Source of the DNA: a phage
DNA: 64,000 nt
Sequence record: NC_135729.1
Reading direction: 5' to 3' (one strand)
Position numbers and translations under genes: made by a program. The notes under the pieces were generated by a model that saw only the letters and a program-made list of their open reading frames with translations, searched no databases and was not told the origin of the DNA. Within the stretch, counting starts at the first letter, position 1. Every line of letters starts with the position of its first letter. Below, in pieces: positions 6,593 through 41,994 of this stretch.

Positions 6593-8140
6593 TTAGATAA
6601 AACGCTTGAACATAGAAGGTGATGAGATTGATGGAATCACACAAGGAAGTGCTACCTCCTCTTTCTCCAGGAAATTAATCGCAGAAGCTACACAGTCGGC
6701 CCAGTCGTCTTTCCTGTTAAATGTTGATCTTTCCCCGTTGAATTTTTCAAGTTCAGTCAGAAATGCTTCCAGAGTATCAGGATGGAAACTGGATTTTACA
6801 ATCCTAACCATTCCTTGTTGGGCAAGATTGGCAAAAGGTGAGAACCTTGTCAGTTTAGATTTGTTGGAAGGCATTGGGTCTTCTTCAACCCTAAACCCTT
6901 CGGCGAGCAAGGATCTGGAGGATGTTAAGAACTCACTCTTACCTGCCTGACCGGGGTCCACAGAGAATACGATTATACAATCATCACCATCAAACTGCGC
7001 CTGTTTCCTGATGATCACATCTCGTTCACCAGCCTTTTTACAGAACTTGCCTTCCAGACCTGTGGAATACCTCCCGTCATCCACGTTCTCAGGACAATAA
7101 TCACCGGACAGGTAATAAAAGCCGTCGCTATCTTTACTTACCTTAACACTGGCGGTAAAGTCAGGAAATTTATTACCGGAAGTTCTCTCGGTTCCTGCCT
7201 TATCCCATGCCCTGCAAGATACTGATCCAAGGGGTACTCTATCGGCATCACGAAGGAAAGATCTTTGAAAATAGTTTGCACCCTCAGGCTTTGCAAACCA
7301 GTTGCCATGAAGAAGCTGGGCTTTTTCAAGCTCGGGCAGACCTTCAAGAAAAGCAAGGTATTCTGGGTTGTCTCTCAAGCAGACAGGATTATCGAAGATT
7401 GTTGCGCCTATAAACGAGAATGACAACGGTCTTGGCTTGATCTCCACACCCAGTCCGTTAACCGTGGTGTATTTCTCTATCAACTCTTCTTTAGAGTCTC
7501 CCCAGATAAATTCACCGTCGCGTCGGATAAAATATCTTTTCTTACCGCATTTCTCCGGATCTGGATACCCTTCATCGTCCAACCACCATCTAACCAGTTT
7601 GGCAAGCATGTGTTCTGAATCTGGGTTACAGCTGATAACCATTCTTGATGGATACTTTGACTGAGATCGCAGACGAGACATCAGATAGTCTATCTGCTCC
7701 CATTCGAACTGCGTTCCCTCATCGAAGCAAACCATGGTGTACTCAAGCCCTTGATGGTTAAGCTTATCTTGTACATACTCCATGTGGCAGTATTTTACAA
7801 CAGCTCCCTTTTTGCTCCTATCCCACTTGCCAGTGTTCGGATCAAACCGTGGAAAAATGAACTTATGATCCTTCTCTCTGAACTTTGGCTTAATGTTTTC
7901 AGGCAGATCACTATAAATAGCTACTGCTTTAGGCCATAGTCCACCCTCACCTTCCAACTGTGGGGTTGTTCTTCGGAACATAACCACAGAGCTGTGGGGG
8001 TCATCAATAATTTTAAGTGGCATCAACTGCAAGAGGAACGACTTGCCAGACCCTGCGGCACCGCCGATTACCAAAATATCTGCATCGTTTTCTAGGATCA
8101 TCTTCTGCTTTTCAGAACACGGTCCGTAAATCTTAGACAT
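6593..8140 (-). CDS. terminase large subunit
   Basis: Walker A GGAAGSGKS near N-terminus; 515 aa; C-terminal nuclease-sized domain. Confidence 0.8.
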   Translation of the reverse strand: MSKIYGPCSEKQKMILENDADILVIGGAAGSGKSFLLQLMPLKIIDDPHSSVVMFRRTTPQLEGEGGLWPKAVAIYSDLPENIKPKFREKDHKFIFPRFDPNTGKWDRSKKGAVVKYCHMEYVQDKLNHQGLEYTMVCFDEGTQFEWEQIDYLMSRLRSQSKYPSRMVISCNPDSEHMLAKLVRWWLDDEGYPDPEKCGKKRYFIRRDGEFIWGDSKEELIEKYTTVNGLGVEIKPRPLSFSFIGATIFDNPVCLRDNPEYLAFLEGLPELEKAQLLHGNWFAKPEGANYFQRSFLRDADRVPLGSVSCRAWDKAGTERTSGNKFPDFTASVKVSKDSDGFYYLSGDYCPENVDDGRYSTGLEGKFCKKAGERDVIIRKQAQFDGDDCIIVFSVDPGQAGKSEFLTSSRSLLAEGFRVEEDPMPSNKSKLTRFSPFANLAQQGMVRIVKSSFHPDTLEAFLTELEKFNGERSTFNRKDDWADCVASAINFLEKEEVALPCVIPSISSPSMFKRFI

Positions 8141-8427
8141 TAACCTCTCTCCTTTGGAAACAGTGTTCTAATATAGTCTTGCAAAATGATCAATTTAGCT
8201 CTATCATTGCTACAAGACAGATTATTATCCCTCATAATGCCAGAGTTCACTGCATCTGGCGCACCTTTCTTCAAAGGCATAGCTTTAGCAGGTGGTTTCA
8301 TGGCACCTTCTGGGGGTTTAACAATCAACCTTCCTACATCTGGAGGGTCAATCTTGTATTCTTTCTCAACACTGGTTGCACACCCACATAATAACAAGCA
8401 CGCAATAAACAGTGTGGCAACTCTCAT
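8140..8427 (-). CDS. o-spanin (Rz1-like outer-membrane lipoprotein)
   Basis: Signal peptide with lipobox-like LLLCGCAT, Pro-rich mature part, 95 aa; overlaps upstream partner by 4 nt. Confidence 0.6.
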   Translation of the reverse strand: MRVATLFIACLLLCGCATSVEKEYKIDPPDVGRLIVKPPEGAMKPPAKAMPLKKGAPDAVNSGIMRDNNLSCSNDRAKLIILQDYIRTLFPKERG

Positions 8428-8822
8428 CGATCCTCCTGATTGATACTCTCATTATAAATATCTATAAGCTGATCAGGAAGTGTTGACTTCTTACCTTCAG
8501 GTGATTGGAGGTAGATAATCTGCTTTTCTCTACCTGCCCTCTCAGCTATATTTAATTTATCCTGCAAATCAGAAAGAGATTTTTCAAGGTTTTTAACCTC
8601 CTCTGCGTGGCCCATTTTAATTTTGTCGGCCTGCTTTTGTTGCTGATCAAGGATCCGTTCCCACTTTAACTCTGTTGCTGACACACCCTCTTGGTAGGCA
8701 TCATTAAGCTTAGAGTTAAACCAATACACGGCCCCAAGATAAGCTGCACCTATAGCCGCTGCAAAAACTAAACCTTTTATGATCCCTCTATACCTACTCA
8801 GCCATGTTAAACCTGAAATCAT
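8424..8822 (-). CDS. i-spanin (Rz-like)
   Basis: N-terminal transmembrane segment then coiled-coil periplasmic domain; 132 aa; coupled to lipoprotein gene. Confidence 0.6.
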   Translation of the reverse strand: MISGLTWLSRYRGIIKGLVFAAAIGAAYLGAVYWFNSKLNDAYQEGVSATELKWERILDQQQKQADKIKMGHAEEVKNLEKSLSDLQDKLNIAERAGREKQIIYLQSPEGKKSTLPDQLIDIYNESINQEDR

Positions 8823-8841
8823 TTTAAGGCTCCAGAAACGA

Positions 8842-8876
8842 AAAAACCCCGCAGCTATACAGCTAACGGGGCGGGT
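8842..8876 (-). terminator. rho-independent terminator
   Basis: CCCCG...CGGGG stem with inner palindrome, followed on minus strand by TTTTTTCG. Confidence 0.55.
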
Positions 8877-8927
8877 TAAAATTGAGTAACCTAAATAGAT
8901 CGAAACTAACTAAAAGGAGACTAATAC

Positions 8928-9197
8928 TTATCGAGGCACTCGGTGGATGATTCTAACAGTAACTGCATTTTCATTCATCAAGTATGCATCTACATCTCTG
9001 TAAATATAAAACTTCTGCTCACTATCAACAACACAAGCTACCGCCCCTTCAGAGTTGTCTTCAAAAAAGACCACCACTGCATCGCAGCTGAGTTCATGAT
9101 ATGACTCTCGAAGATTTACAGCCAGAGGATTGAAATCGTCACGAAAATCTACGGTATGGGTTGGATTTACACGCTCTACAATTTTAAGTGTATACAT
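8928..9197 (-). CDS. hypothetical protein
   Basis: ORF trimmed to ATG at 9197; the track's longer start would run into tRNA-Pro. Confidence 0.4.
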   Translation of the reverse strand: MYTLKIVERVNPTHTVDFRDDFNPLAVNLRESYHELSCDAVVVFFEDNSEGAVACVVDSEQKFYIYRDVDAYLMNENAVTVRIIHRVPR

Positions 9198-9243
9198 TTT
9201 AAAGGTTCCTTTTGTTTGTATATGTTTAAAGTATAACTGAAAG

Positions 9244-9320
9244 TGGTCTCCACGGAGTGATTCGAACACTCGACCTCCTGATCCCAAATCAGGCGCTCTA
9301 CCAAGCTGAGCTACGCGGAG
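9244..9320 (-). tRNA. tRNA-Pro (anticodon UGG)
   Basis: Cloverleaf read by eye on minus strand; anticodon loop UUUGGGA; T-loop TTCGAAT; C1:G72 pair; CCA encoded. Confidence 0.8.
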
Positions 9321-9331
9321 TATCTACTATT

Positions 9332-9406
9332 TGGTGGCCCTGGGTGGAATTGAACCACCGTCTGGCGATTATGAGTCGCTTGCTTGAACCTTCCAGCTAC
9401 AGGGCC
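9332..9406 (-). tRNA. tRNA-Met (anticodon CAU; could be Ile2/lysidine type)
   Basis: Acceptor GGCCCTG/CAGGGCC; anticodon loop CTCATAA; T-arm GGTGG-TTCAATT-CCACC; CCA encoded. Confidence 0.7.
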
Positions 9407-9407
9407 A

Positions 9408-9483
9408 TGGTGCTGATGGCAGGACTTGAACCCGCAACCTATTGATTACAAATCAATTGCACTACCAATTGTGCTACATCAGC
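9408..9483 (-). tRNA. tRNA-Thr (anticodon UGU)
   Basis: Acceptor GCTGATG/CATCAGC; D-arm GCAC-AATTGGTA-GTGC; anticodon loop TTTGTAA; CCA encoded. Confidence 0.8.
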
Positions 9484-9488
9484 AAAAA

Positions 9489-9587
9489 GGTGCTAGGCGG
9501 TGGAATCGAACCACCTATGTATTCAACGACTACCTCGTCTATTTTCAGGATTAAAAATCCTCGCCCTTGCCAAAGGGCTTACCTAGC
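9489..9587 (-). tRNA. atypical tRNA-like element (99 nt; candidate anticodon UUU)
   Basis: Canonical acceptor, D-arm, anticodon-like hairpin and T-arm (GGTGG-TTCGATT-CCACC), but about 29 nt separate anticodon stem and T-stem; ends in CC not CCA. Confidence 0.35.
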
Positions 9588-9685
9588 TCAATATGTTGAC
9601 CATGTTGCTAGTCGGCGATGACGACTGTAACATTTGATAATCCGGTTCTGCTTCCGGCTTTCGCTTAATTGCAAGGTCAACAATG

Positions 9686-9776
9686 TGGCGGAGAGTAATG
9701 GAATCGAACCATCATCGAGTCATCCTCAACGGGACGGTTTTCAAGACCGCTTGAGCACCATTGCTCCCTACCCTCC
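9686..9776 (-). tRNA. tRNA-Ser (anticodon UGA), type II
   Basis: Acceptor GGAGGGT/ACTCTCC; anticodon loop CTTGAAA; long variable arm; 91 nt; CCA encoded. Confidence 0.7.
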
Positions 9777-9891
9777 TTTATAAATTATACTGATAATGAC
9801 ACTGATTTTCGAGCAGTTAGTGACTAGTATAAACGACGATAAATATCAATGCCATTATCTGTATTATTTATGCATCTAAAAAATATAAATT

Positions 9892-9978
9892 TGGTGGGGA
9901 GTGGTGGAGTCGAACCACCCGAGTCGCAATGACAATAGATTTACAGTCTACACCGCTACCTCTACGGGATAACTCCCC
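9892..9978 (-). tRNA. tRNA-Tyr (anticodon GUA), type II
   Basis: Acceptor GGGGAGT/ACTCCCC; anticodon loop CTGTAAA; T-arm GGTGG-TTCGACT-CCACC; 87 nt; CCA encoded. Confidence 0.75.
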
Positions 9979-9982
9979 AATT

Positions 9983-10057
9983 TGGCACCCCGTACTGGAC
10001 TCGAACCAGTGTCAACGGCTTAGAAGGCCGCTGCTTTATCCACTAAGCTAACAGGGC
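9983..10057 (-). tRNA. tRNA-Arg (anticodon UCU)
   Basis: D-arm GCTT-AGTGGATA-AAGC; anticodon loop CTTCTAA; T-arm ACTGG-TTCGAGT-CCAGT; CCA encoded. Confidence 0.75.
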
Positions 10058-10153
10058 ACTGGGTGGCTTTCTTTTACACCTTAGCCGCCAGAAAAGGTGG
10101 GAGACCATGTTTACAATATTACACTGTTAAGCAAAGTTTGTCAAGAAAATATT

Positions 10154-10492
10154 TTAGCTATTGCTAACAGGCTGTATTTCTGTAGTAAATGGCATAAAAG
10201 GTGCTGGTTTTTCAGCCTCTTCCACTACCACCTCTTCCTCTTCACCAAACATCTCATCATATTCTTCCTGCATTCGGTCTGCCTTATCAAGAACATACTC
10301 TGCAATGCTTTGACGAATATTTTGTTTGGTTTTCGGGTCCAACATCAGCTCTCTTAAAACTTTGTGAGCTTCTGGAACCATCGCTATAAAAGATTCCTTC
10401 ATATCAAGGATGTTCTTCTCTAGCTGAATGGCGTTGGACTCCTCTTTCAGAGGTCTGCCTCTACGGCGACGCTTTTTAGTTGTATCCGCCAT
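10154..10492 (-). CDS. hypothetical protein with basic N-terminus and acidic C-terminus
   Basis: Start set at ATG 10492 with GGAGGAAACATG; KKRRRRGRPLK N-terminus; ATCACGTGAT palindrome sits at the start codon. Confidence 0.45.
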   Translation of the reverse strand: MADTTKKRRRRGRPLKEESNAIQLEKNILDMKESFIAMVPEAHKVLRELMLDPKTKQNIRQSIAEYVLDKADRMQEEYDEMFGEEEEVVVEEAEKPAPFMPFTTEIQPVSNS

Positions 10493-10826
10493 GTTTCCTC
10501 CATTATCACGTGATAGGTGGATTTTATCACAGCAAATACTGATTGTCAAGTTCGCCGCAGGGTGGTGTTCCCTGCGACTTGTCCAGCGTCCTGGACCAGC
10601 AAGTTTTCCAGCTATACCCATTACCGCGCTCAGGCTCGACCTTATTACAGGTTGGCTGGGGTCACATCGTCATGTGCTGGCTGCCCCTACCATTTTAAGT
10701 GTGGTGCACTATCAAGCCCTCTAAGGGGAACTCAGTCTTCTCCGAACCCTGTTTCAAAGCATCCGGAGATAAAGCCATCAAATTCATCTTTAAATTGGAT
10801 ATTCATCATGATACACGAAAACAACC

Positions 10827-11069
10827 TCATTGTAAAGCGCAAATAAATAAAACATACTTAATTTGTTTGTTATCAGGCTCAGGGTAGAAGTAGAAGATCT
10901 TGCTATCACCGATCTGAACACCACCATCCCAACAGCATAGCCCATAACCTGTATTCATACAAGCTAGGTCGTTGGCAAAATCTATTGCATCATCCAGTGC
11001 ACGAAATTCACCTTCATCTTCTAAATAATCCTCATTCATGGAACGAAAAACGAGCTTAACCTTAAACAT
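10827..11069 (-). CDS. hypothetical protein
   Basis: 80-aa ORF in the minus-strand operon. Confidence 0.35.
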   Translation of the reverse strand: MFKVKLVFRSMNEDYLEDEGEFRALDDAIDFANDLACMNTGYGLCCWDGGVQIGDSKIFYFYPEPDNKQIKYVLFICALQ

Positions 11070-11145
11070 AGCATTACCTGTAGACCTCGTAAGTTAAAAT
11101 TGCATCACATCATATTGCAGATCTTATCAGGTAACACTATTTTTG

Positions 11146-11355
11146 TCAACAGATTCCGGCCTTATCCTTCCTGTCTGCGTATTCTTTAATCGCAACCTCA
11201 TCTGCATTAGTGACCAGGTATTCAAAGTAACTCTCAAGCTCCTCGTCAATGTCAGGAGACCAGCTCTTTTTCCTGTCAGTGTGAATTGCAGACTTGTTGA
11301 ACTTATTACAGTTCTTTGCTACCGGGTTGTTCATTAAGCGCTCCTCAGCGTTCAT
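11146..11355 (-). CDS. hypothetical protein
   Basis: 69-aa ORF overlapping the upstream gene end by 11 nt. Confidence 0.35.
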   Translation of the reverse strand: MNAEERLMNNPVAKNCNKFNKSAIHTDRKKSWSPDIDEELESYFEYLVTNADEVAIKEYADRKDKAGIC

Positions 11356-11923
11356 AGTAAATTTTATTTAACATTACCTCATCCTTTGCAGAAAGGATAT
11401 CTAGATATGCATCACCGAATCTACCTGCAACAACCTCTGCATGATACATCACTTCGTTAATATCGTCAAGAGTGATAACTGGATGACCGTATCTCTCTGA
11501 GTATTGTCTCAGAGTGCGATGTAGGGAGTCATCATCATAGGCAGACTTTTTAATATCGCAAACACGACGAATAGCCTTGATGTCGAAAAACCCTGTACGA
11601 TACCAACCAAGAAAAAGGTTTCGTGCAGTGTCAACATCTACATCAATACCATTAAGAACCTTATCTACAAGATAGCTGTCATCCTTTGGACCAGCTTCCT
11701 TAGTGCGAATGTAGTTGCCATCTTTTCCAGGTGACATCTCCTTCTCATCACCAACCTGCATGCCATCATTTGGCGGTGTTAGCCACTTATCCGGATGCTT
11801 ACGATCACGAGCGTTAGAATGATTACGCTGGAAACCAGGCTTCCACTTGAAAGTTTTCTCCATCTGTTCTTCATTCTGATAACGTTTTGCAATCTTTTCA
11901 CGGTCATCTTTGCGTGAACCCAT
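11345..11923 (-). CDS. hypothetical protein
   Basis: 192-aa ORF with GAGGAGG Shine-Dalgarno before ATG. Confidence 0.45.
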   Translation of the reverse strand: MGSRKDDREKIAKRYQNEEQMEKTFKWKPGFQRNHSNARDRKHPDKWLTPPNDGMQVGDEKEMSPGKDGNYIRTKEAGPKDDSYLVDKVLNGIDVDVDTARNLFLGWYRTGFFDIKAIRRVCDIKKSAYDDDSLHRTLRQYSERYGHPVITLDDINEVMYHAEVVAGRFGDAYLDILSAKDEVMLNKIYYER

Positions 11924-12039
11924 AGCTGCCTCCTCTTCAAGTTATAGAAAAACTCACTGTATCACTTTGTAACGAGCTTTTCTATCAAACTGGTGCGATT
12001 GCATTACCTGGTATAGTTCATATAGCTGTGGAGCGATTT

Positions 12040-12290
12040 AGGGGCCTTCTTGTCAGTTTCCACACATAAACTTCATCCAAGCTCGCGCGGGAGACTCTCA
12101 ACCGACTCCTTACGGCGCTGGCAAGCTTTCGTCGGTGGTCCACATCAGTGCTCGGCCTTTGGCCTGCGCTATCGCTTCGCTCCCACACATGTTAACAGAC
12201 CTGCATGTATGCACTTCTGTTATTGTGTGCACCAAGGAGGCCCGGCATCTCGCCCCTCGTAGGCGAGTGCCAATGAAGGGCCGACACTAC
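12040..12290. other. GC-rich structured island (candidate ncRNA or DNA structural element)
   Basis: About 250 bp much more GC-rich than flanks; many local hairpins; distal segments GGGGCCTTCTTG and CAAGGAGGCCC are complementary; track ORF 12050-12262 has no RBS. Confidence 0.3.
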
Positions 12291-12426
12291 CTATAGTAAG
12301 TAATAATTTTAAAACATGGTACTTAGGATCTAGTATATTCTACATAAGTTAAGTATATGTACTTAGTACCATAAGTACTAGATCTTTTATTTTTTATTAT
12401 TTAGTTATTTTAGTTATATTCTTTAT

Positions 12427-12509
12427 GTGTCCGTATCACGGACAGTTAGTGTCCGTATTACGGGCAGATGTGTCCGCGTGACGGACAGTAGTGTCCGTAT
12501 CACGGGCAG
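12427..12509. repeat. four tandem 19-bp iterons with internal dyad (GTGTCCGTATCACGGACAG-like), about 21-bp spacing
   Basis: Units start at 12427, 12449, 12470, 12491; each holds the inverted repeat TGTCCGT..ACGGACA. Confidence 0.7.
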
Positions 12510-12583
12510 TTACTGACCTCTGTTCCAGAGCGAACATAAAACATACGAATCCTTATAGTACAGATATTTAAGTTTTTACTGGT

Positions 12584-12934
12584 CTAACCAGTTGTTGACA
12601 TTCGAATAACCTCTTCTGGTGGCAAAACTTTGGAAAATGTACATCTTTTACCTCTCCCTTGTGTGGATATTTCAACCACTCCTGCACATTCTAAAGTTTT
12701 AACGCACGCTGCTGCTTTTGTTTTCTTTATCCCAACATCTGCTGCAATTTTCCTTGTGCTTGGTGTGAAGCGTGAATTTCCTCCAAGCTTATACCAGTTG
12801 TGCAGGTAGCAGTATACGATCTTGTCATATAAGTCAAGAACAACAGCCTCCCCAGTTGTGTCATTCAAAACTTTTGACATAGACAGTATTTCAAGGGGGA
12901 CTTTAAGATATAGCAGCTTATCCCCATCTTTCAT
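12584..12934 (-). CDS. putative winged-helix DNA-binding protein
   Basis: 116 aa; helix-turn-helix-like segment STRKIAADVGIKKTKAAACVKTLECAGVV; lies next to the iteron array. Confidence 0.4.
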   Translation of the reverse strand: MKDGDKLLYLKVPLEILSMSKVLNDTTGEAVVLDLYDKIVYCYLHNWYKLGGNSRFTPSTRKIAADVGIKKTKAAACVKTLECAGVVEISTQGRGKRCTFSKVLPPEEVIRMSTTG

Positions 12935-12981
12935 ATCTCCTGATTCTCCTTGTGTGGCAATTTTCTTTAAAATAGCAGGGA

Positions 12982-13536
12982 TTACTCCCCGCTGTCAATA
13001 GCAAGACTCATTGCAATACGGTATGCCTCTTCTAATGGTAAGAGTCTCCCCCACACATCCCAACCGACATCAAACTGCCTGCCAAACAACTGCTGTGTGG
13101 TTCCGTGAGCATGACCGAACAGTTGGACTGATCCGTGAGGCTTTCTGTTCCACTTTGCAAACTGGTAATGGCTCATACAGATCAAATTCTTGTTGTGGCG
13201 AAGCTCGTAATAATCTACAACCTCATGACCGAACTCTTTCATAATTCTGACAGTCGTCCTTGTGTCATGGTTACCACGAACAAGAATAATATGTCCGTTC
13301 AACATATTTAGAACATCTGGGAGCAATTTGTTGATATTCTTATCATTAGTGCACGCAATATCTCCCAAGTGAAACACAGTGTCTGCAGGTGACACAACAG
13401 AGTTCCACTCGGCGATGATTCCCGCATTCATACTGTCAAGATTGTGATCATACTGAGATCTGTGTTTTTGACATGAATCAAACTCCATGACCCGCTGGTG
13501 GAGAAAGTGTGTGTCGCTTGTTACAAAGTATTTCAT
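12982..13536 (-). CDS. calcineurin-like metallophosphoesterase
   Basis: Motifs SDTHF, GDIACT, GNHD, HAHG; start set at ATG 13536 with GAGGAA. Confidence 0.6.
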   Translation of the reverse strand: MKYFVTSDTHFLHQRVMEFDSCQKHRSQYDHNLDSMNAGIIAEWNSVVSPADTVFHLGDIACTNDKNINKLLPDVLNMLNGHIILVRGNHDTRTTVRIMKEFGHEVVDYYELRHNKNLICMSHYQFAKWNRKPHGSVQLFGHAHGTTQQLFGRQFDVGWDVWGRLLPLEEAYRIAMSLAIDSGE

Positions 13537-13543
13537 ACATTCC

Positions 13544-13953
13544 TCATTTAAGTTTAATGCAGTTTTTAAGCTGGCGTTCCATACGATCCACAACCTTGTC
13601 TGGAACATCATGAATGCTTTTATTACCGTGGCGGTTTTCAACCACGATCACGGTATAACTATACCCGTGACTGATTGCCATGTCAACATATTCCTGCACA
13701 TGTTTTTCTTTTGTAAACGTATTACTTACCACGATACGGTCGTATCCCGTACGCATCATATCTTCTACGTTATCTTTGCACCATTTTGCTGCGAGTGTTA
13801 CTTTACTTGCATCCCAGTTGTAATTGCCGTCATCGTCATACCAGAACATGTCGTTCTCAAAATGTGGATACAGACCTTCTAAAGATAGCGCATTTGCCAG
13901 TGTTGATTTGCCAGACCCTGGCAGACCACGCACGATATATAGCATTTTAGACA
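13544..13953 (-). CDS. P-loop kinase (polynucleotide 5'-kinase-like)
   Basis: Walker A GLPGSGKST eight residues from N-terminus, as in the T4 Pnk kinase domain; start at ATG 13953 with GGAGG. Confidence 0.5.
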
Positions 13954-13982
13954 TAGCAACCCTCCGTTTTAATTTTAATGAT

Positions 13983-14011
13983 AGTATACCTAACTGTTTT
14001 GTTAATTTCAA
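13983..14011 (-). promoter_or_regulatory. sigma70-like promoter for the kinase/phosphoesterase operon
   Basis: TTGAAA - 17 nt - TATACT on minus strand. Confidence 0.5.
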
Positions 14012-14014
14012 GTG

Positions 14015-14045
14015 TTGACACTAGGTTATTTGTGTGGCATGATAG
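14015..14045 (+). promoter_or_regulatory. sigma70-like promoter heading the plus-strand block
   Basis: GTTGACA - 18 nt - ATGATA; the -35 context is shared by other plus-strand promoters. Confidence 0.45.
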
Positions 14046-14072
14046 ACTGACAAAATGACAAATGAGGAACGT

Positions 14073-14990: not shown

Positions 14991-15337
14991 AGAAGTTGAT
15001 TGTGTGGCTAGATGACTTAAGAGATCCGTCAAATTACGGGCTCCCAGACGCTGTTTGGCTGAAGAATTCCTCCGAGTTTATGGATTTTATTAACGATAAG
15101 GGAAAGCTCTACAGACGCGTTTCTGAGTGGCATATGGACAACGACCTAGGAGAAGTATTCGAAGGATACGATTGCCTATCCATGTTGGAGGAAAAATTTG
15201 TATTCGGTAAGCCTCCCGTGGTTGACAACGTGAAGATTTTCGTACATACTTCTAATCCATCAGCGGCTCGTAAATTCATGCTTGCAGCTGACTCGTTTAA
15301 AAAGTTTGGAATAGAGATTAAACAAAACATCTACTGA
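14987..15337 (+). CDS. hypothetical flavodoxin-fold (CheY-receiver/TIR-like) protein
   Basis: IVWLDD N-terminus, SEWHMDNDLGE and IFVHTSNP segments resemble receiver-domain landmarks; weak. Confidence 0.3.
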   Translation: MKKLIVWLDDLRDPSNYGLPDAVWLKNSSEFMDFINDKGKLYRRVSEWHMDNDLGEVFEGYDCLSMLEEKFVFGKPPVVDNVKIFVHTSNPSAARKFMLAADSFKKFGIEIKQNIY

Positions 15338-15345
15338 GGGCACTT

Positions 15346-16107
15346 ATGCGACGACTGATTATTATCTCCGGTGCTGGTTTGAGCGCTGAATCTGGTATTC
15401 CCACTTTCCGATCTGGTAGTACTGCAATGTGGGAGAATTTCAGCATAGATGAGGTGTGCAACATCCACACCTTCGCCAAGAACTACTATAAGGTGCATGA
15501 CTTTTACAATGCACGTCGTGTAGCTCTGGGCAGTGTTGATCCTAACCTTGCACATCTCCGGATCGCTGAGTGGTATTCCCGCTGGTCTGGTCGTGTGATC
15601 AACCTGACCACCAATGTAGATGATTTGCTGGAGCGTGCTGGTGTAAAACATGAAGATATTTTACATGTCCACGGGTATTTGCCTGAAATCACCTATGAAG
15701 ATACTGAAGGTAATGATGTAATTAAAAATATAGGGTACACGGAGGTAGATACAGGCAAGTATACCTGGGTTAAGCCCAATGTAGTGTTCTTCGGTGAGGT
15801 TGCTCCTAAGTATACAGACATGTATGACCTGTTGACATCTCTTACCAGCAATGATATGGTGATCCTGGTAGGTTGTTCTAACACAGTTATTAATTTTAAC
15901 TGGGAATTGTTTCCTGCTACTTGTAAAGGCACAAAACTGCTGATTGTAAACAAGTATGATTCGCAGAGTGCAGATGGAAGTGGCATTTCACGTAGCGACC
16001 TTTATCAATATGAGGATCGCGGGATCCCTGTATGGTTTAACGGTGCTGTTGACGCTTTCTCTGATAAAGCATTTATTGAAACTGTAGAAAACTTTATGGA
16101 ACTGTAA
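15346..16107 (+). CDS. Sir2-family NAD-dependent protein (zinc-ribbon-less sirtuin)
   Basis: GAGLSAESGIPTFRS NAD-binding motif, TTNVDDLLERAG, HVHG catalytic His; no Cys tetrad. Confidence 0.7.
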   Translation: MRRLIIISGAGLSAESGIPTFRSGSTAMWENFSIDEVCNIHTFAKNYYKVHDFYNARRVALGSVDPNLAHLRIAEWYSRWSGRVINLTTNVDDLLERAGVKHEDILHVHGYLPEITYEDTEGNDVIKNIGYTEVDTGKYTWVKPNVVFFGEVAPKYTDMYDLLTSLTSNDMVILVGCSNTVINFNWELFPATCKGTKLLIVNKYDSQSADGSGISRSDLYQYEDRGIPVWFNGAVDAFSDKAFIETVENFMEL

Positions 16108-16121
16108 GAGGTGACCTTTTA

Positions 16122-16835
16122 ATGCTAAATACTAAACTGATCGACAACCTGGAAAAACTGTCTCAGCCAGAAAACTACCTTTGGTCTGCCAGTTGGGTGG
16201 AAAATTGGAACCGTGTAGCAGCTAAAGTGAAAAAATCATACACACCATTCGAACTCCAGCTCAGTTTTATTGAAGAAGAGTTTAATGAGGTTCTTGAAGA
16301 GTTGGAGAAAGGTGATGGTGGAGATCACCTGCTAAAAGAGGCCTGTGATCTGCACGTTGTTACAAGTTATGCCGCTTATCTTGTCAACGATAACTACGAA
16401 AAGTGGACAAGTCTGTTTGATAATTCGCGAGATATTAAGTTTAAGATTGGGGAGTTCTATGATACACTGATCGCTGCTAAAAACACACCAAAGCAAAAAG
16501 CGTCTGCTTACCGACTAGCGGAGTTATCAACAGCTTTGCTGTTCCAGCTTAGCGGGGATGTGTGTGGGATGATGCGGAAGGTTCTCAAATCTAATGACAG
16601 TAAGTTTGCGCGGATCAACCATCTACGGCATTCACACGGTGCTAGTGCAGATATGCCTGCTGAACAACTCATAGAGTTGGAGATTAAAGATCTTGAGCGA
16701 CGCTTTGATGGTCGCTACGAAGGTTTTGTTGCTAAGGAAGAGTTCTACAACGGTAATAAAGTTATCATATTCCTTGACAGTAAAGGTAAGATCATGAAGC
16801 CTTCGAGCTTCAAGGATGTAACAGAGTATATTTGA
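16122..16835 (+). CDS. putative MazG-like NTP pyrophosphohydrolase domain protein
   Basis: EEEFNEVLEELEKGDGGDHLLKEACD resembles the EExxE...ExxD metal-binding helices; weak. Confidence 0.3.
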   Translation: MLNTKLIDNLEKLSQPENYLWSASWVENWNRVAAKVKKSYTPFELQLSFIEEEFNEVLEELEKGDGGDHLLKEACDLHVVTSYAAYLVNDNYEKWTSLFDNSRDIKFKIGEFYDTLIAAKNTPKQKASAYRLAELSTALLFQLSGDVCGMMRKVLKSNDSKFARINHLRHSHGASADMPAEQLIELEIKDLERRFDGRYEGFVAKEEFYNGNKVIIFLDSKGKIMKPSSFKDVTEYI

Positions 16836-16841
16836 CAACAT

Positions 16842-16868
16842 AGCCGGGTAATCCCGGCTTTACTTATT
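16842..16868 (+). terminator. putative rho-independent terminator
   Basis: AGCCGGG-taat-CCCGGCT stem followed by TTACTTATT. Confidence 0.4.
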
Positions 16869-16897
16869 ATGGAAAGTATGCAGCGAGGTAGTTAGTT

Positions 16898-17206
16898 ATG
16901 TACAAGCATTCCAGAGATCTTGAAAAAGATGCTGTGTTTGGCGACCAGATGAAGGAGCTGATCAAACTTATAGGTAGAATGGAAGATAAGTTTGACACTA
17001 AAATCTACATCGATAGCAAGATCTTCAACCACAAAATATGGACAAATGTGTGTGTTGGGCTACATGGTGATAAAGATATTGTAAATTTGGTTGTAATAAA
17101 GTTCATAGTGTGGCAGAATAAGACTATACGTTATTCCGATCCACACTTACTTGTTTATCCTATAAAAGACCTACTACAGAAGGAGGACTGCAATGCCGTT
17201 ATTTAA
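16898..17206 (+). CDS. hypothetical protein
   Basis: 102-aa ORF. Confidence 0.35.
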   Translation: MYKHSRDLEKDAVFGDQMKELIKLIGRMEDKFDTKIYIDSKIFNHKIWTNVCVGLHGDKDIVNLVVIKFIVWQNKTIRYSDPHLLVYPIKDLLQKEDCNAVI

Positions 17207-17462
17207 TCTTGCTAAACCTGTAGAAGCCCACCAGTTTGACGGAAGCTCTTCATCAGTATCTGATCTGCAACGGTGGATTGATACAGGTGTGTTTACATCG
17301 TCACCTGTTCGGACCAGAGATCTTCGTCGCATGTGTGAGCTTGTCGAGCCTTTTGGTAACCTTGTCTTGTACCAGGGAGATTGGCTAGTTGACTTTATGG
17401 GAGACTGGTTGGTAATGAGTAAAGAAGAGATGTTTAAAATTTTTAAGGAAGAGGCCGAGTAA
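17193..17462 (+). CDS. hypothetical protein
   Basis: 89-aa ORF; stop overlaps the ligase start. Confidence 0.35.
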   Translation: MPLFNLAKPVEAHQFDGSSSSVSDLQRWIDTGVFTSSPVRTRDLRRMCELVEPFGNLVLYQGDWLVDFMGDWLVMSKEEMFKIFKEEAE

Positions 17463-18745
17463 TGCATCAAATCAAAACAACACTGTACGCACTGAACAAA
17501 GATGGCAGCTACCAACAGTGGAAAGTATTCACTGATGGCGAAAAGGTTATCGTAGAGTTTGGCAAGCTTGACGGTAAATTGCAGTACAAAGAGACGGTAT
17601 GCACACCTAAGAACGTAGGTCGTGCCAATGAGACTACAGCTGAGCAACAGGCCGAGCTTGAGGCTATCAGCAAGTGGGAAAAACAAGTCCGTCTGGGGTA
17701 TGTTGAAAACATGGAAGATTGCGAGCAGGGTGTTGATCTTTTACCCATGCTGGTGCATGACTACCTGAAGCGTGGCAAGGCACTTAAACTACCTTGCTGG
17801 ATCTTGCGTAAGTTAGATGGCCTTCGTCTGCTTGTTGTTTTCCAAAATGGTGAGCCTAAATTTATTTCCCGTGGTAATAAGTCCTACCCTATTCAAGGAA
17901 AGCTTTTAGAGCAACTTCGTTCTTTCCATTCTACCACTGGGATTAAACAACTTGATGGGGAACTATACATTCATGGTCTTCCTTTGCAGAAAATAGTGTC
18001 TCTTGCTAAACGGTGGCGCACACAGGAAGAGATTCAGGCCGAGATCGATAAAGACTATGAGGCAGATAAAAAACGCCGTCATGCCGCAATTAAGTCCGGC
18101 TTATCAACATATAAAAACTTCAACAAGGTAGATATTCCTGTCGATGTTGAGCCTGTTCGTGATGATTTGCGTTACGGTGGGTACTGTAGCTACGATCTGG
18201 AGTATCACATTTTTGATATTCCTAGCGACAAGGTGTGGTGGGATCCCGAAACAGAGTCTGGACGCTGCAAGGATCTTATGGATGCAGAGGATACCGTTAC
18301 CACTCTGATGCTTGACCATATCAAGGTTGTTGACGCAGAGCTTGCGTACACAGTTGATCATTGCGAAGAATCTGTTGGTATATTCATGTCCGAAGGATAT
18401 GAAGGTACCATTATGCGTAACTTCTGTGGTAAATATGAGTACGGTCAGAGAACATCTGAAGCATTGAAATGGAAAAAGTTCAACGACGCAGAGGTGAAAG
18501 TTATTGACGTTGAGAAAGATAAGAATGATGAAGGTGTTCTTATCTGTGTTGACAAGGAAGGTATTGTTGTTAAAATGAAGATGAAAGGTACGCACGAGGA
18601 GCGTAGCTATGACAGAATGCAGGAAATGATCGGCAAGTTTGTCACCTTCAAATATCAAGCAAGGACAGAAGACAACAACTACCAATTCCCTGTCGGTATC
18701 TGCGTCCGAAATGTTAACCCAGACACTTGGGAGGTGCTGGAATAA
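17462..18745 (+). CDS. ATP-dependent DNA ligase
   Basis: Motif I KLDGLR, motif IV EGTIMR, motif V KWKK; 427 aa. Confidence 0.7.
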   Translation: MHQIKTTLYALNKDGSYQQWKVFTDGEKVIVEFGKLDGKLQYKETVCTPKNVGRANETTAEQQAELEAISKWEKQVRLGYVENMEDCEQGVDLLPMLVHDYLKRGKALKLPCWILRKLDGLRLLVVFQNGEPKFISRGNKSYPIQGKLLEQLRSFHSTTGIKQLDGELYIHGLPLQKIVSLAKRWRTQEEIQAEIDKDYEADKKRRHAAIKSGLSTYKNFNKVDIPVDVEPVRDDLRYGGYCSYDLEYHIFDIPSDKVWWDPETESGRCKDLMDAEDTVTTLMLDHIKVVDAELAYTVDHCEESVGIFMSEGYEGTIMRNFCGKYEYGQRTSEALKWKKFNDAEVKVIDVEKDKNDEGVLICVDKEGIVVKMKMKGTHEERSYDRMQEMIGKFVTFKYQARTEDNNYQFPVGICVRNVNPDTWEVLE

Positions 18746-18887
18746 TTTAGGTATGTTTAGTAGCCAATTGAATAAGTGTTTTCAATTTGCACCTACATAT
18801 GCCCTGATGTATGAACTGTGCAACCTAGCCACACCACACAGTGGTGCTGATCGGGGCTCGTTATGAGTGAACTGGAGAGTATGAAAA

Positions 18888-19358
18888 ATGAAACTTGATA
18901 AAAATGTTCAACGAAAGGCTTTCTTGGATATGATCGCATATTCGGAAGGCACAGATAATGGTAGACAACCTACCAAGGATCGGGGATACGATGTCATAGT
19001 CGGAGGCAAGCTGTTCAGCGATTACAGCAAGCATCCCGGTGTTTACGTTAAGCTAAATGCTAAACTTACCTCCTCCGCTGCTGGGCGTTACCAGGTTTTG
19101 GAGAAGTTTGCTAAACACTACATGGAACAGTTAGGATTGCCAGATTTTGGCCCTGCCAGTCAGGACAAGATTGCGTTGCAACTGATCCGTGAGTGCAAGG
19201 CTCTCGCCGACATTGACGAAGGGCGTATCCACGAGGCTATCCATAAATGCCGTTCCCGCTGGGCTTCGTTGCCTGGTGCTGGATATGGTCAGCATGAACA
19301 GAAGATTGAGAAGTTGATCGAGGTGTTTAAAAAGGCAGGCGGTGTTGTCCTTGATTGA
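18888..19358 (+). CDS. endolysin, lambda R-like lytic transglycosylase
   Basis: Near-colinear recalled match to lambda R: QRKAFLDM..SEGTDNGRQ..GYDVIVGG..AGRYQ..WASLPGAGYGQ. Confidence 0.8.
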   Translation: MKLDKNVQRKAFLDMIAYSEGTDNGRQPTKDRGYDVIVGGKLFSDYSKHPGVYVKLNAKLTSSAAGRYQVLEKFAKHYMEQLGLPDFGPASQDKIALQLIRECKALADIDEGRIHEAIHKCRSRWASLPGAGYGQHEQKIEKLIEVFKKAGGVVLD

Positions 19359-19362
19359 TCAT

Positions 19363-19390
19363 TGACATAACCACACGGACGTGGTATTGT
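19363..19390 (+). promoter_or_regulatory. sigma70-like promoter
   Basis: TTGACA - 16 nt - TATTGT. Confidence 0.45.
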
Positions 19391-19421
19391 TACCTCATAA
19401 AATGTTTAGGAGGGTTTAACC

Positions 19422-19628
19422 ATGAAAGACTTTCTGTTGGCAATTTTGTTCATGGCAGCATGTCTGGCCTGTGGTGTCGTGTTTGCAGGTGAAACAGCGT
19501 ATCTTGTCGATGTATATCGGGACAATGGTAAACGTATTTGCCTTTATGAGACAAGTCAAGGTGAGCTCTACGAGCTTGTGAAACAAGGCGAGGCTGGATC
19601 TTGTCCTCGCACCCATTTCTTTGAGTGA
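19422..19628 (+). CDS. small secreted protein
   Basis: Signal peptide with VFA-G cleavage-like site; 68 aa; directly downstream of endolysin. Confidence 0.4.
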   Translation: MKDFLLAILFMAACLACGVVFAGETAYLVDVYRDNGKRICLYETSQGELYELVKQGEAGSCPRTHFFE

Positions 19629-41964: not shown

Positions 41965-41994
41965 TATACAATTTAACCTACAAAGGGAGGACCA

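What the first reader, a model, noticed from the sequence alone, without database searches (positions are those of the whole stretch)
8140..19628. Lysis functions are dispersed and no adjacent holin is evident
The lambda R-like endolysin (18888-19358) has no signal peptide or SAR segment and so needs a holin, but its neighbours are a DNA ligase and a small secreted protein (19422-19628). The spanin pair sits 10 kb away at the end of the late operon beside the terminase gene. Holin candidates are scattered small membrane proteins (41995-42222, 59310-59681, 55906-56040, 56644-56748, 58971-59090). The secreted protein after the endolysin may be a lysis regulator.
Basis: partly seen in the sequence, partly recalled or inferred. 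Interest (0 to 1): 0.45.

Follow-up and report, generated by a model that had tools for sequence, protein, structure and literature searches.

The report
Scattered lysis genes of rV5-type phage
This is a stretch of an rV5-like E. coli phage whose cell-bursting genes (a lambda-type wall-cutting enzyme and a two-part outer-membrane disruptor) lie 10 kb apart with no recognisable membrane hole-former beside them. The same gap has been noted in print for this phage group since 2013, so the finding is correct but not new.

Summary
The window is a Vequintavirus (rV5-like myophage; 98.6% identical to phage PDX). A soluble lambda R-type endolysin (18888-19358) lies between the DNA ligase gene and a small secreted protein. 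An i-/o-spanin pair (8424-8822, 8140-8427) lies 10 kb away and is translationally coupled to the large terminase. No adjacent holin and no homologue of any known holin family was found.

This is already published: the rV5, LL12, Gotham, KPP-1 and CB7 papers all say the holin is unlinked or unidentified.

New details here:
- The secreted protein keeps its place in distant relatives that have no endolysin beside it, so the adjacency is weak evidence for a lysis role.
- gp129 heads a membrane-protein module conserved in position across the subfamily. It also has a sigma-70-like promoter, a hypervariable first helix and a naturally frameshifted allele.
- The gp183-type protein looks like a membrane-anchored soluble domain in an early-gene block.
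- Outside the window lie a signal-bearing SleB-type hydrolase and conserved membrane proteins in the tail-fibre operon.

Which gene is the holin remains unresolved.

The parts
6593..8140 (-). Large terminase subunit. It is intact here (1548 nt, as in Murica) and its start codon overlaps the o-spanin stop (TAATG).
8140..8427 (-). o-spanin: a proline-rich outer-membrane lipoprotein of 95 aa with lipobox LCGC.
   Evidence: rv5 o-spanin family under 'Separated' in PMC6139136
8424..8822 (-). i-spanin: 132 aa with an N-terminal TMD and a periplasmic coiled coil. Its stop overlaps the o-spanin start (ATGA).
   Evidence: (PHROG 4297, 3.8e-48)
8841..8876 (-). Intrinsic-terminator-like hairpin with a T-run, about 20 nt upstream of the i-spanin start. 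The spanin-TerL block therefore follows a terminator.
   Evidence: sequence; terminator annotated at the same place in Murica
9244..10057 (-). Cluster of seven tRNA genes between the spanins and the upstream small ORFs.
17462..18745 (+). ATP-dependent DNA ligase, the upstream neighbour of the endolysin.
18549..18576 (+). Sigma-70-like promoter (TTGACA-16-TAAAAT, extended -10, 11/12 matches) inside the 3' end of the ligase gene, about 310 nt upstream of the endolysin.
   Evidence: consensus match only
18888..19358 (+). Soluble lambda R-type endolysin (lytic transglycosylase fold), 156 aa, with no export signal.
19362..19390 (+). Sigma-70-like promoter (TTGACA-17-TATTGT, extended -10, 10/12 matches) between the endolysin and the secreted-protein gene.
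   Evidence: consensus match only
19422..19628 (+). Small periplasmic protein of 68 aa with a cleavable signal (…VFA|GE). The mature part is about 45 aa with two conserved Cys. Function unknown (PHROG 4641).
19638..20102 (+). HNH homing endonuclease, the downstream neighbour.
41939..41967 (+). Sigma-70-like promoter (TTGACA-17-TAGTAT, 10/12 matches) ending about 28 nt before the gp129-type start codon.
   Evidence: consensus match only
41995..42222 (+). gp129-type protein of 75 aa: two TMDs, the conserved motif KFDDF…AAPFWP and a basic C-terminal tail. It is the 'putative holin' of the rV5 paper and the best in-window holin candidate.
42336..42455 (+). gp131-type membrane peptide of 39 aa with one TMD, in the same overlapping gene string.
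42424..42627 (+). gp132-type small acidic protein. It is conserved in Mydovirus and Seunavirus relatives in the same position.
42624..43094 (+). gp133-type tail-anchored protein (C-terminal TMD). [quoted passage not shown]
59310..59681 (-). gp183-type membrane protein of 123 aa: two N-terminal TMDs and a conserved C-terminal helical domain of about 70 aa. BASEL GenBank records annotate it 'putative holin'.
59717..59739 (-). Terminator-like hairpin in the gap immediately upstream of the gp183-type gene.
55906..56040 (-). Membrane peptide of 44 aa with two hydrophobic helices, in the early-type gene block (corresponds to rV5 ORF170).
56644..56784 (-). Membrane peptide of 35-46 aa with one TMD (corresponds to rV5 ORF173), in the early-type block.
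58971..59132 (-). Membrane peptide of 40-53 aa with one C-terminal TMD (corresponds to rV5 ORF181), in the early-type block.

Best explanation
This is the standard three-step lysis system of Gram-negative tailed phages, laid out with unlinked genes as in T4 and T7.

(1) Endolysin. A soluble lambda R-type transglycosylase (18888-19358) is made from the DNA-metabolism gene string. It accumulates harmlessly in the cytoplasm. The soluble nature is shown; the timing is inferred.

(2) Holin. At a set time an unlinked holin makes large holes in the inner membrane and releases the enzyme. This step is inferred from established holin-endolysin biology. No holin is identifiable by homology.

(3) Spanins. 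The i-/o-spanin pair (8424-8822 and 8140-8427) is translated together with the large terminase at the head of the morphogenesis block. It then disrupts the outer membrane. The gene identity and the coupling are shown; the function follows from family membership.

My best single guess for the holin, at about 0.3, is the gp129-type two-helix protein at 41995-42222. It heads a string of overlapping genes that ends in an abundant late protein (gp133 type). The small secreted protein next to the endolysin is most likely a conserved periplasmic protein of the ligase-exonuclease block that has no demonstrated link to lysis.
For: Identity of the phage and of the annotated lysis genes:
- The window is 98.6% identical to phage PDX and about 97% identical to Murica and LL12 over 12 kb.
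- The Center for Phage Technology (CPT) records annotate the same endolysin, i-spanin and o-spanin, and annotate no holin.

Endolysin and spanins:
- The endolysin is 62% identical to lambda R, the catalytic motif is conserved, and there is no hydrophobic segment.
- The spanin family match and the overlapping stop/start codons were confirmed.

Published statements of the same layout:
[quoted passage not shown] - CB7, rV5 and PVP-SE1: the spanins lie beside the large terminase and there is no classic cassette.
- The T7 record shows the precedent tail fibre, holin, small terminase, spanins, large terminase.

For gp129 as the holin:
- It is 75-78 aa with two TMDs and a Lys/Arg-rich tail.
- The same slot holds a 69-72 aa two-helix protein, followed by the gp132 and gp133 homologues, in Mydovirus, Seunavirus and metagenomic relatives.
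- gp133 is abundant in virion preparations, so this gene string is expressed when late proteins are made.
- The length of the C-terminal tail varies between alleles.
Against: Against the gp129 assignment:
- No candidate matches any holin family in Pfam, NCBIfam or PHROGs, the T7 holin profile or PDB.
- A sigma-70-like promoter with a perfect -35 hexamer lies directly upstream, which suggests early rather than late transcription.
- The loop between the two helices is basic (SRRRVK). Under the positive-inside rule the class II N-in/C-in topology is therefore uncertain (inference).
- The first helix is hypervariable (55-100% identity) within a genus whose neighbouring genes are 87-98% identical. 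That pattern fits an arms-race protein such as a superinfection-exclusion factor better than a holin.
- A T5-to-T6 frameshift that truncates helix 2 occurs in a 137-kb contig and in a second sequencing run. This hints that the gene is dispensable.
- The CPT curators left it as 'hypothetical protein'.

Other limits:
- Other plausible holins exist outside the window.
- No expression-timing data for this genus were found.
- My helix calls come from a simple hydropathy scan, not a trained predictor.
Confidence: 0.45

Rival explanations
1. The holin lies outside this window, in the late tail-fibre operon. In rV5 the candidates are ORF31 (104 aa, one N-terminal TMD and a cytoplasmic coiled coil) and/or ORF29 (88 aa, two weakly hydrophobic helices). 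This would mirror T7, where the holin follows the tail-fibre gene, and T4, where t follows gene 38.
For: - Both genes lie inside the late structural gene string of rV5, between tail-fibre and tail-fibre-assembly genes.
- ORF31 homologues occur in 223 phage records across Vequintavirinae. ORF29 homologues occur in 373 records, including phi92-like phages.
- In PVP-SE1 the two genes flank a third membrane protein with four TMDs, so genes 44-43-42 form a contiguous membrane trio.
- The T7 precedent is shown.
Against: - There is no holin family match, and hhalign against T7 gp17.5 gives a probability below 1%.
- The rV5 authors' TMHMM and Phobius runs called no TMD in gp29.
- The ORF29 core is very strongly conserved, including polar residues (WSNxGM, PQLISK), and its tail is acidic. 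That looks more like a specific binding partner.
- Several records label these genes tail-fibre or structural proteins.
Confidence: 0.2
2. The gp183-type protein (59310-59681) is the holin, as annotated in the BASEL GenBank records.
For: - It is a small membrane protein with two strongly hydrophobic helices.
- Six BASEL records listed annotate it 'putative holin'; the DrSchubert record was inspected.
- It is 93-100% conserved in 118 Vequintavirus records.
Against: - The conserved part is the C-terminal soluble helical domain of about 70 aa. Natural variants replace the two helices with a single unrelated helix, so the membrane segment behaves as an exchangeable anchor.
- It lies in a block with many strong sigma-70-type promoters on the coding strand, 49 sites against 32 +/- 6.7 expected. 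rV5 annotates promoters P164-P231 there.
- A terminator lies immediately upstream.
- It was not found outside the genus.
- There is no family or fold match.
Confidence: 0.07
3. The secreted protein at 19422-19628 is a periplasmic lysis regulator, either an RI-like antiholin or an inhibitor of the muralytic enzyme.
For: - It lies immediately downstream of the endolysin.
- It has a cleavable signal and two conserved Cys, which suggests a folded, disulphide-bonded periplasmic protein.
- It is 95-100% conserved across the genus.
- T4 RI and Spackle are precedents for small periplasmic proteins acting on lysis or lysozyme (established knowledge, not tested here).
Against: - Homologues in ChuuTotoro and SSBI34 keep the same position between the ligase and the exonuclease with no endolysin beside them.
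- It has its own sigma-70-like promoter.
- There is no sequence match to any solved structure, RI and Spackle included, and no family annotation.
- No T-type holin with a periplasmic domain was found for it to bind.
Confidence: 0.1
4. gp129 and the other small membrane proteins are early host-takeover or superinfection-exclusion factors (T4 Imm-like). The true trigger of lysis is either something not recognisable as a holin by sequence or topology, or it involves the exported SleB-type hydrolase encoded next to rIIA.
For: - Sigma-70-like promoters lie upstream of gp129 and across both small-ORF blocks.
- gp129 has a hypervariable first helix and a frameshifted natural allele.
- rV5 ORF2 is a SleB/Hydrolase_2 enzyme (Pfam 2e-19) with an N-terminal signal-like helix. 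It is annotated 'endolysin' in RefSeq Murica and lies beside rIIA.
- In CB7 the SleB-like gene overlaps a two-TMD holin candidate.
Against: - A soluble lambda R-type enzyme has no known route to the wall other than a holin (established knowledge).
- SleB-type hydrolases are also present in T5-like phages.
- No small membrane ORF was found next to SleB in rV5.
Confidence: 0.18

Closest known systems
Escherichia phage rV5 and other Vequintavirus members (Murica, LL12, PDX, FFH2, BASEL Bas phages)
   Same: The window is the same genome type, 96-98.6% identical over the 12-kb region. It has the same endolysin, spanins, neighbours and membrane ORFs. The same unanswered holin question is stated in print.
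   Different: The differences are allelic only. The large terminase is intact here, whereas it is annotated as intron-containing in LL12 and split in Mangalyan. The gp129 allele is 75 aa here against 78 aa in most relatives.
Phage T4 lysis system (e, t, rI, rIII, pseT.3/pseT.2)
   Same: Both have a soluble endolysin encoded among nucleic-acid-metabolism genes, a holin elsewhere and spanins at a third locus. rIIA and rIIB homologues are present in rV5 (the T4 layout is from established knowledge and from the rV5 paper's own comparison).
   Different: No homologue of the T holin (one TMD and a large periplasmic domain) or of RI/RIII was detected. The endolysin is lambda R-type rather than T4 E-type. 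rV5 also lacks the T4 late-transcription proteins gp33, gp45 and gp55.
Phage T7 lysis genes (3.5, 17.5, 18.5/18.7)
   Same: In both, the spanins lie beside the terminase genes and the muralytic enzyme lies in the DNA-metabolism region. T7's holin follows the tail-fibre gene, and rV5 has membrane proteins in its tail-fibre cluster.
   Different: Neither gp129 nor the ORF29 family resembles T7 gp17.5 in sequence. The T7 spanins are embedded one in the other, whereas these are separate genes that overlap only at a stop/start codon.
Phage lambda S-R-Rz/Rz1 cassette
   Same: The endolysin is a 62%-identical homologue of lambda R. The spanin pair is functionally equivalent to Rz/Rz1.
   Different: There is no cassette. 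No S-like holin lies upstream of the R homologue, and the spanins are 10 kb away on the other strand.
Pectobacterium phage CB7 (Certrevirus) lysis genes
   Same: It belongs to the same subfamily. Its spanins lie beside the large terminase, it has no classic cassette, and its holin was proposed only from a two-TMD topology.
   Different: The CB7 candidate overlaps a SleB-like hydrolase gene. In rV5 the SleB-type gene lies beside rIIA with no small membrane ORF next to it.

Membership tests
Lambda R-type endolysin (lytic transglycosylase, lysozyme-like fold) | Sequence homology to lambda R over the full length | tested here: met
   PDB 1am7/3d3d match at E 3e-56 over residues 4-154, 62% identity. 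PHROG 90 'endolysin' at 3e-56. The current Pfam-A scan gave no hit at E<=0.01.
Lambda R-type endolysin (lytic transglycosylase, lysozyme-like fold) | Catalytic glutamate in the N-terminal SEGT motif | tested here: met
   AYSEGTD aligns with AWSEGTD of lambda R.
Lambda R-type endolysin (lytic transglycosylase, lysozyme-like fold) | Soluble cytoplasmic protein with no signal peptide or SAR domain, and therefore holin-dependent | tested here: met
   The highest 19-residue hydropathy score is 0.42, and the score is negative over the N-terminal 40 residues. The alignment to lambda R starts at residue 4, so there is no N-terminal extension.
Lambda R-type endolysin (lytic transglycosylase, lysozyme-like fold) | Peptidoglycan-cleaving activity | not testable with these tools
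   This needs an enzyme assay.
Two-component spanin (Rz/Rz1 type, separated architecture) | i-spanin with an N-terminal TMD (N-in) and a periplasmic coiled-coil domain | tested here: met
   The TMD spans residues 14-35, preceded by Arg/Lys. PHROG 4297 'Rz-like spanin' at 3.8e-48.
Two-component spanin (Rz/Rz1 type, separated architecture) | o-spanin that is a small, proline-rich lipoprotein with a lipobox Cys | tested here: met
   The sequence MRVATLFIACLLLCGC|ATS… is followed by the Pro-rich stretch PPDVG…KPPEGAMKPPAKAMP. It is annotated o-spanin by CPT and listed as the rv5 o-spanin family.
Two-component spanin (Rz/Rz1 type, separated architecture) | The two genes are adjacent and co-expressed | tested here: met
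   There is an ATGA stop/start overlap, and a further TAATG overlap with TerL.
Class II holin (two TMDs, N-in/C-in; e.g. S21 68), considered for 41995-42222 | Small protein with two transmembrane helices and a charged C-terminal tail | tested here: met
   75 aa. The helices span about residues 3-27 and 38-59. The tail is DYYKNIRKESRDGDRT. The rV5 authors obtained the same result with TMHMM and Phobius.
Class II holin (two TMDs, N-in/C-in; e.g. S21 68), considered for 41995-42222 | N-in/C-in topology with a short periplasmic loop | tested here: inconclusive
   The loop SRRRVKFDD is net basic, which the positive-inside rule would place in the cytoplasm. One borderline profile hit (P0059, E 1e-3), found in an unrelated gene context, has an acidic loop and a basic tail. 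No trained topology predictor was available.
Class II holin (two TMDs, N-in/C-in; e.g. S21 68), considered for 41995-42222 | Homology to a described holin family | tested here: not met
   There was no holin hit in Pfam, NCBIfam or PHROGs, in the T7 gp17.5 profile comparison or in PDB. The 1.84-billion-protein profile search found relatives only in the same phage context.
Class II holin (two TMDs, N-in/C-in; e.g. S21 68), considered for 41995-42222 | Linkage to an endolysin or spanin gene | tested here: not met
   It lies 22.6 kb from the endolysin and 33 kb from the spanins. Its neighbours are proteins of unknown function.
Class II holin (two TMDs, N-in/C-in; e.g. S21 68), considered for 41995-42222 | Late expression | tested here: inconclusive
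   A sigma-70-like promoter lies directly upstream. However, the gene is in one overlapping string with gp133, which is abundant in virion preparations. No transcriptome was found.
Class II holin (two TMDs, N-in/C-in; e.g. S21 68), considered for 41995-42222 | Timed, lethal hole formation that releases endolysin | not testable with these tools
   This needs induction and complementation experiments.
T4-type holin/antiholin pair (T with RI), considered for 19422-19628 as an RI-like regulator | Periplasmic antiholin together with a holin that has a large periplasmic domain | tested here: not met
   The protein is periplasmic. No T-like holin family member was detected among the membrane ORFs scanned, and there is no similarity to any solved structure. 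The adjacency to the endolysin is not conserved.

The most novel reading that the evidence does not exclude
The conserved string made of a two-helix membrane protein, a small acidic protein and the abundant tail-anchored gp133-type protein is kept in position across Vequintavirinae genera even where the two-helix protein is no longer recognisably homologous. It could be a previously undescribed holin/lysis-timing module. Alternatively, the subfamily-wide membrane proteins of the tail-fibre operon could be a new holin family. Either case would assign the missing holin for a large group of therapeutic coliphages and their Klebsiella and Salmonella relatives.
Probability: 0.2. Interest if true: 0.5.

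Novelty: already known. Interest (0 to 1): 0.22.

Why it matters
rV5-like phages are widely used in phage-therapy and food-safety cocktails. Their lysis timing determines burst size and endotoxin release, yet the gene that sets that timing is still unassigned. The dispersed layout and the missing holin have been reported repeatedly since 2013. The value here is therefore limited to narrowing the candidates. The published BASEL pick (gp183 type) looks unlikely. The rV5 pick (gp129 type) has mixed evidence. Membrane proteins in the late tail-fibre operon, outside this window, deserve testing. Assigning the holin would be a useful but incremental result.

Tried and rejected
(1) Family scans of the main membrane-protein candidates, inside and outside the window, against Pfam, PHROGs and NCBIfam. 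No holin family was hit, only PHROGs of unknown function.

(2) Homology searches of the 5.8-billion-protein collection with gp183, gp129 and rV5 ORF29. Only relatives in the same phage group were found, with no informative names apart from one 'DUF2644' label that the Pfam scan did not reproduce.

(3) An exhaustive profile search of 1.84 billion representatives with the gp129 alignment. It returned six proteins at E<=0.001. Two of the three remote small-protein hits lie in the same synteny, one lies in an unrelated context at E 1e-3, and one is a spurious repeat protein.

(4) Profile comparison of the gp129 and ORF29 families with the T7 holin gp17.5. The probability was below 1% in both cases.

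(5) Comparison of gp129 with the positional analogue in Seunavirus and Mydovirus. The similarity was not significant.

(6) PDB sequence searches with the secreted protein and with gp129. Nothing was found.

(7) An AlphaFold model of gp183 (pLDDT 73, all helical) followed by Foldseek against PDB. There was no match at E<=0.001.

(8) A single-sequence AlphaFold model of gp133. It was too poor to use (pLDDT 48).

(9) A scan for the rV5 late-type motif TGGTAAAATA. Intergenic copies lie upstream of structural genes, but none lies upstream of the endolysin, gp129 or gp183.

(10) A literature search for a Vequintavirus transcriptome. None was found.

(11) A check of whether gp183 homologues lie in prophage lysis cassettes. 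The 'E. coli' hits are rV5-like phage contigs with the same synteny.

Full report
**What the window is.** A 12-kb query covering the finding matches 753 phage records. The best are Escherichia phage PDX (98.6% identity over 100% of the query) and Mangalyan, Murica and LL12 (about 97%), all members of Vequintavirus, the rV5-like myophages. GC skew splits the window into three blocks: a leftward block at 1-14,000, a rightward block at 14,000-51,000, and a leftward block at 51,000-64,000. These correspond to the transcription units described for rV5.

**Checking the observation: the endolysin.**
- The ORF at 18888-19358 encodes a 156-aa protein that aligns with lambda lysozyme R over residues 4-154 (PDB 1am7/3d3d, E 3e-56; 93 of 151 residues identical), with the catalytic motif conserved.
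- It matches PHROG 90 'endolysin'. The current Pfam-A scan returned nothing at E<=0.01.
- Its most hydrophobic 19-residue stretch scores 0.42 on the Kyte-Doolittle scale, and the N-terminus scores below zero. It therefore has no signal or SAR segment.
- Its neighbours are the DNA ligase (17462-18745), a 68-aa ORF (19422-19628) and an HNH endonuclease.

**Checking the observation: the spanins.**
- The i-spanin (8424-8822) has an N-terminal TMD and matches PHROG 4297 at 3.8e-48.
- The o-spanin (8140-8427) has the lipobox LCGC and is proline-rich.
- Both are annotated as spanins by the Center for Phage Technology (CPT) in Murica, LL12 and Mangalyan. The published spanin census lists them as the rv5 family.
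- Their junctions are ATGA and TAATG, so i-spanin, o-spanin and TerL are translationally coupled.
- In the direction of transcription they head the packaging and morphogenesis block, about 20 nt after a terminator-like hairpin. They are not at its end.

**It is already known.**
- The rV5 paper states that no holin homologue was found. [quoted passage not shown] - The CB7 paper notes that in CB7, rV5 and PVP-SE1 the spanins lie beside the large terminase, outside any cassette.
- BASEL GenBank records annotate the homologue of 59310-59681 as 'putative holin'. They did so by the stated method of screening small proteins for TM helices.

**The secreted protein (19422-19628).** Alignment with its two distant homologues (35-38% identity) shows an N-terminal hydrophobic segment ending in an A-x-A-type site (VFA|G, ASA|S, AHA|G). 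It also shows two invariant cysteines in a mature part of about 45 residues. It is therefore a cleaved, probably disulphide-bonded periplasmic protein, and 'secreted' is right. Within the genus it is 95-100% conserved. In Serratia phage ChuuTotoro and Salmonella phage SSBI34, however, the homologue occupies the same ligase-to-exonuclease block with no endolysin next to it. In this window a sigma-70-like promoter (TTGACA-17-TATTGT, extended -10) lies between the endolysin stop and its start. The lambda R-type gene appears to have landed next to a pre-existing conserved gene, so adjacency is weak evidence for a lysis role. No family or structure match gives a function.

**The gp183-type candidate (59310-59681).** It has two strongly hydrophobic N-terminal helices and a C-terminal domain of about 70 residues. 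Database variants (P0006, P0007) keep the C-terminal domain at 63-67% overall identity but replace the two helices with one unrelated helix. The 'E. coli' contigs that carry these variants are rV5-like phage contigs with the same gene order. The conserved functional part therefore seems to be the soluble domain, with the membrane segment acting as an exchangeable anchor. That is the opposite of what is expected of a holin.

The gene lies in a block where sigma-70-type sites are enriched (49 against 32.1 +/- 6.7 in shuffles). Nine of the eleven sites with at least 10 of 12 matches are on the coding strand. rV5 annotates promoters P164 to P231 in this block. A terminator-like hairpin lies in the 67-nt gap just upstream of the gene. 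An AlphaFold model (pLDDT 73) is all helical and has no significant Foldseek match in PDB. I rate this candidate low. The three smaller membrane peptides (55906-56040, 56644-56784, 58971-59132) share the same early-type context.

**The gp129-type candidate (41995-42222): points in favour.**
- It has the size, two helices and basic tail expected of a class II holin.
[quoted passage not shown] The string is therefore expressed when late proteins are made.
- The module is conserved in position. In a Klebsiella Mydovirus-like phage and a Salmonella Seunavirus, the gp133 homologue (28-34% identity) is preceded by the acidic gp132 homologue (pairwise E 3e-8) and by a 69-70-aa protein with two helices and an RRR tail. 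That protein belongs to the PVP-SE1 gp167 family, found in 69 records.
- The exhaustive profile search found only three remote small relatives. Two of them occupy the same slot in divergent metagenomic relatives.

**The gp129-type candidate: points against.**
- The Seunavirus/Mydovirus two-helix protein is not detectably homologous to gp129.
- A sigma-70-like promoter with a perfect -35 hexamer ends about 28 nt before the start codon. Twelve of the thirteen strongest sites in 38-51 kb are on the coding strand. Early transcription is therefore plausible.
- The loop between the helices is basic, so the topology is uncertain.
- Helix 1 is hypervariable within the genus, at 55-100% identity against 87-98% for gp133.
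- A T5-to-T6 insertion that truncates helix 2 is present in a 137-kb contig and in a second run of the same project. If real, the gene is dispensable.
- No holin family, T7 holin profile or PDB entry matches.

**Outside the window.** I read the rest of the rV5 genome.
- ORF2 is a SleB/Hydrolase_2 cell-wall hydrolase (Pfam 2e-19; PHROG 938 'endolysin') with an N-terminal signal-like helix. It is encoded immediately upstream of rIIA and is annotated 'endolysin' in RefSeq Murica. These phages therefore carry a second, exported muralytic enzyme.
- ORF31 lies in the late tail-fibre operon. It is 104 aa, with one TMD predicted N-out/C-in and a cytoplasmic coiled coil. It is conserved across Vequintavirinae in 223 records.
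- ORF29 lies in the same operon. It is 88 aa, belongs to PHROG 1322 'membrane protein' and has two weakly hydrophobic helices. It is conserved in 373 records, including phi92-like phages.
- In PVP-SE1 these two genes flank a protein with four TMDs, forming a contiguous trio.

This placement recalls T7, where the holin follows the tail-fibre gene and the spanins lie between the terminase genes. It also recalls T4, from established knowledge. These proteins also match no holin family. ORF29 has a strongly conserved polar core and an acidic tail, and some records call these genes structural or tail-fibre proteins.

**Most likely mechanism.** The architecture is secure. A soluble lambda R-type endolysin accumulates in the cytoplasm, an unlinked holin releases it, and a spanin pair co-translated with the terminase completes lysis. 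Steps 1 and 3 rest on family membership shown here. Step 2 is inferred from established holin-endolysin biology.

My estimates for which gene is the holin are:

| Candidate | Probability |
|---|---|
| gp129 type (41995-42222) | about 0.3 |
| ORF29/ORF31 module outside the window | about 0.2 |
| gp183 type (59310-59681) | about 0.07 |
| Other small membrane proteins, or a non-canonical route | the rest |

The rightward DNA-metabolism string that carries the endolysin, and the gp129 string, both carry sigma-70-like promoters. The late structural genes carry the extended -10-like motif TGGTAAAATA, which I found in intergenic positions upstream of several structural genes but not upstream of the endolysin, gp129 or gp183.

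**Verdict.** The novelty class is 'already known'. Interest is low: a specialist would not be surprised, and the open question of which gene is the holin was already stated in the literature with the same candidates. The modest added value is the comparative evidence that demotes the gp183 pick and the 'lysis regulator' idea, together with the pointer to conserved membrane modules that could be tested directly.

**Caveats.** Transmembrane helices were called with a simple Kyte-Doolittle window scan, not a trained predictor. Promoter and terminator sites are consensus matches only. The frameshift allele could be a sequencing or population artefact.

Noticed in passing
window 9489-9587 (-): One member of the seven-gene tRNA cluster is aberrant. 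It is 99 nt long, and ARAGORN reports a four-base anticodon 'atcc' with no assigned amino acid. GenBank records call it tRNA-Lys, 'OTHER' or 'Asp|Gly', and the Rfam tRNA model does not reach its gathering score there. It could be an intron-containing, frameshift-suppressor-like or degenerate tRNA.
   Followed up: partly
window 6593-8140 (-): The large terminase gene is a single intact 1548-nt ORF here, as in Murica. In LL12 it is annotated as intron-containing, in Mangalyan it is split into two CDSs with an insert, and the rV5 paper describes it as divided into three segments, one containing a homing endonuclease.
   Followed up: partly
window about 52100-54300, repeats at 53380-53680: This stretch has almost no ORFs and lies at the switch between the rightward and leftward gene blocks. 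It corresponds to the 2.6-kb gap between rV5 ORF163 and ORF164, which the rV5 map marks as 'non-coding'. It holds a cluster of direct and inverted repeats built on AAGCAGGGCAACTAT / ATAGTTGCCTTGCTT, together with an exact 20-nt direct repeat 261 nt apart. It could be an origin of replication or a regulatory region. Rfam finds nothing there.
   Followed up: partly
window 41995-43094 (+); L013 1832-2986; L014 1826-2992; L015 5528-6654; L018 6001-6946: A gene string made of a two-TMD protein, a small acidic protein and a tail-anchored protein of about 150 aa (gp129 to gp133 in rV5) is conserved in position across Vequintavirinae genera. The two-TMD member has diverged beyond recognition, while gp132 and gp133 remain detectably homologous. 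Its function is unknown.
   Followed up: partly
L007 (rV5 DQ832317) 1980-2480 (-), outside the window: rV5-type genomes carry a second peptidoglycan hydrolase. It is a SleB/Hydrolase_2 enzyme with an N-terminal signal-like helix (MKIKIFAIILSAFLSLPVVAAPK…), and its gene overlaps the start of rIIA. RefSeq Murica calls it 'endolysin'. Homologues are widespread (1265 phage records), including T5-like and PB1-like phages.
   Followed up: partly
L007 20937-21203 (-) and 22348-22662 (-); L009 4001-5070: The tail-fibre operon encodes two conserved membrane proteins, rV5 ORF29 (PHROG 1322) and ORF31 (PHROG 5345). In PVP-SE1 they flank a protein with four TMDs, forming a contiguous trio. ORF29 has an unusually conserved polar core (WSNxGM…EWY…PQLISK…LRWG) shared with phi92-like phages.
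   Followed up: partly
L022 601-780 and L023 313-492 compared with window 41995-42222: A natural allele of the gp129-type gene carries one extra T in a T5 run, which truncates the protein inside its second helix. It is seen in two sequencing runs (SRR30814700 and SRR30814719), one of them giving a 137-kb contig.
   Followed up: yes
window 49238-49501 (+): An 87-aa protein has an N-terminal TMD followed by a basic juxtamembrane stretch and a C-terminal domain of about 60 aa. It belongs to PHROG 13956 of unknown function. It is another membrane-anchored small protein that is not holin-like.
   Followed up: no
window 15346-16835 (+): A Sir2-like NAD-dependent deacetylase gene is followed by a MazG-like NTP pyrophosphohydrolase-domain gene, between the RNA ligase and the DNA ligase. 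This pairing might relate to countering NAD-depleting or nucleotide-based host defences.
   Followed up: no
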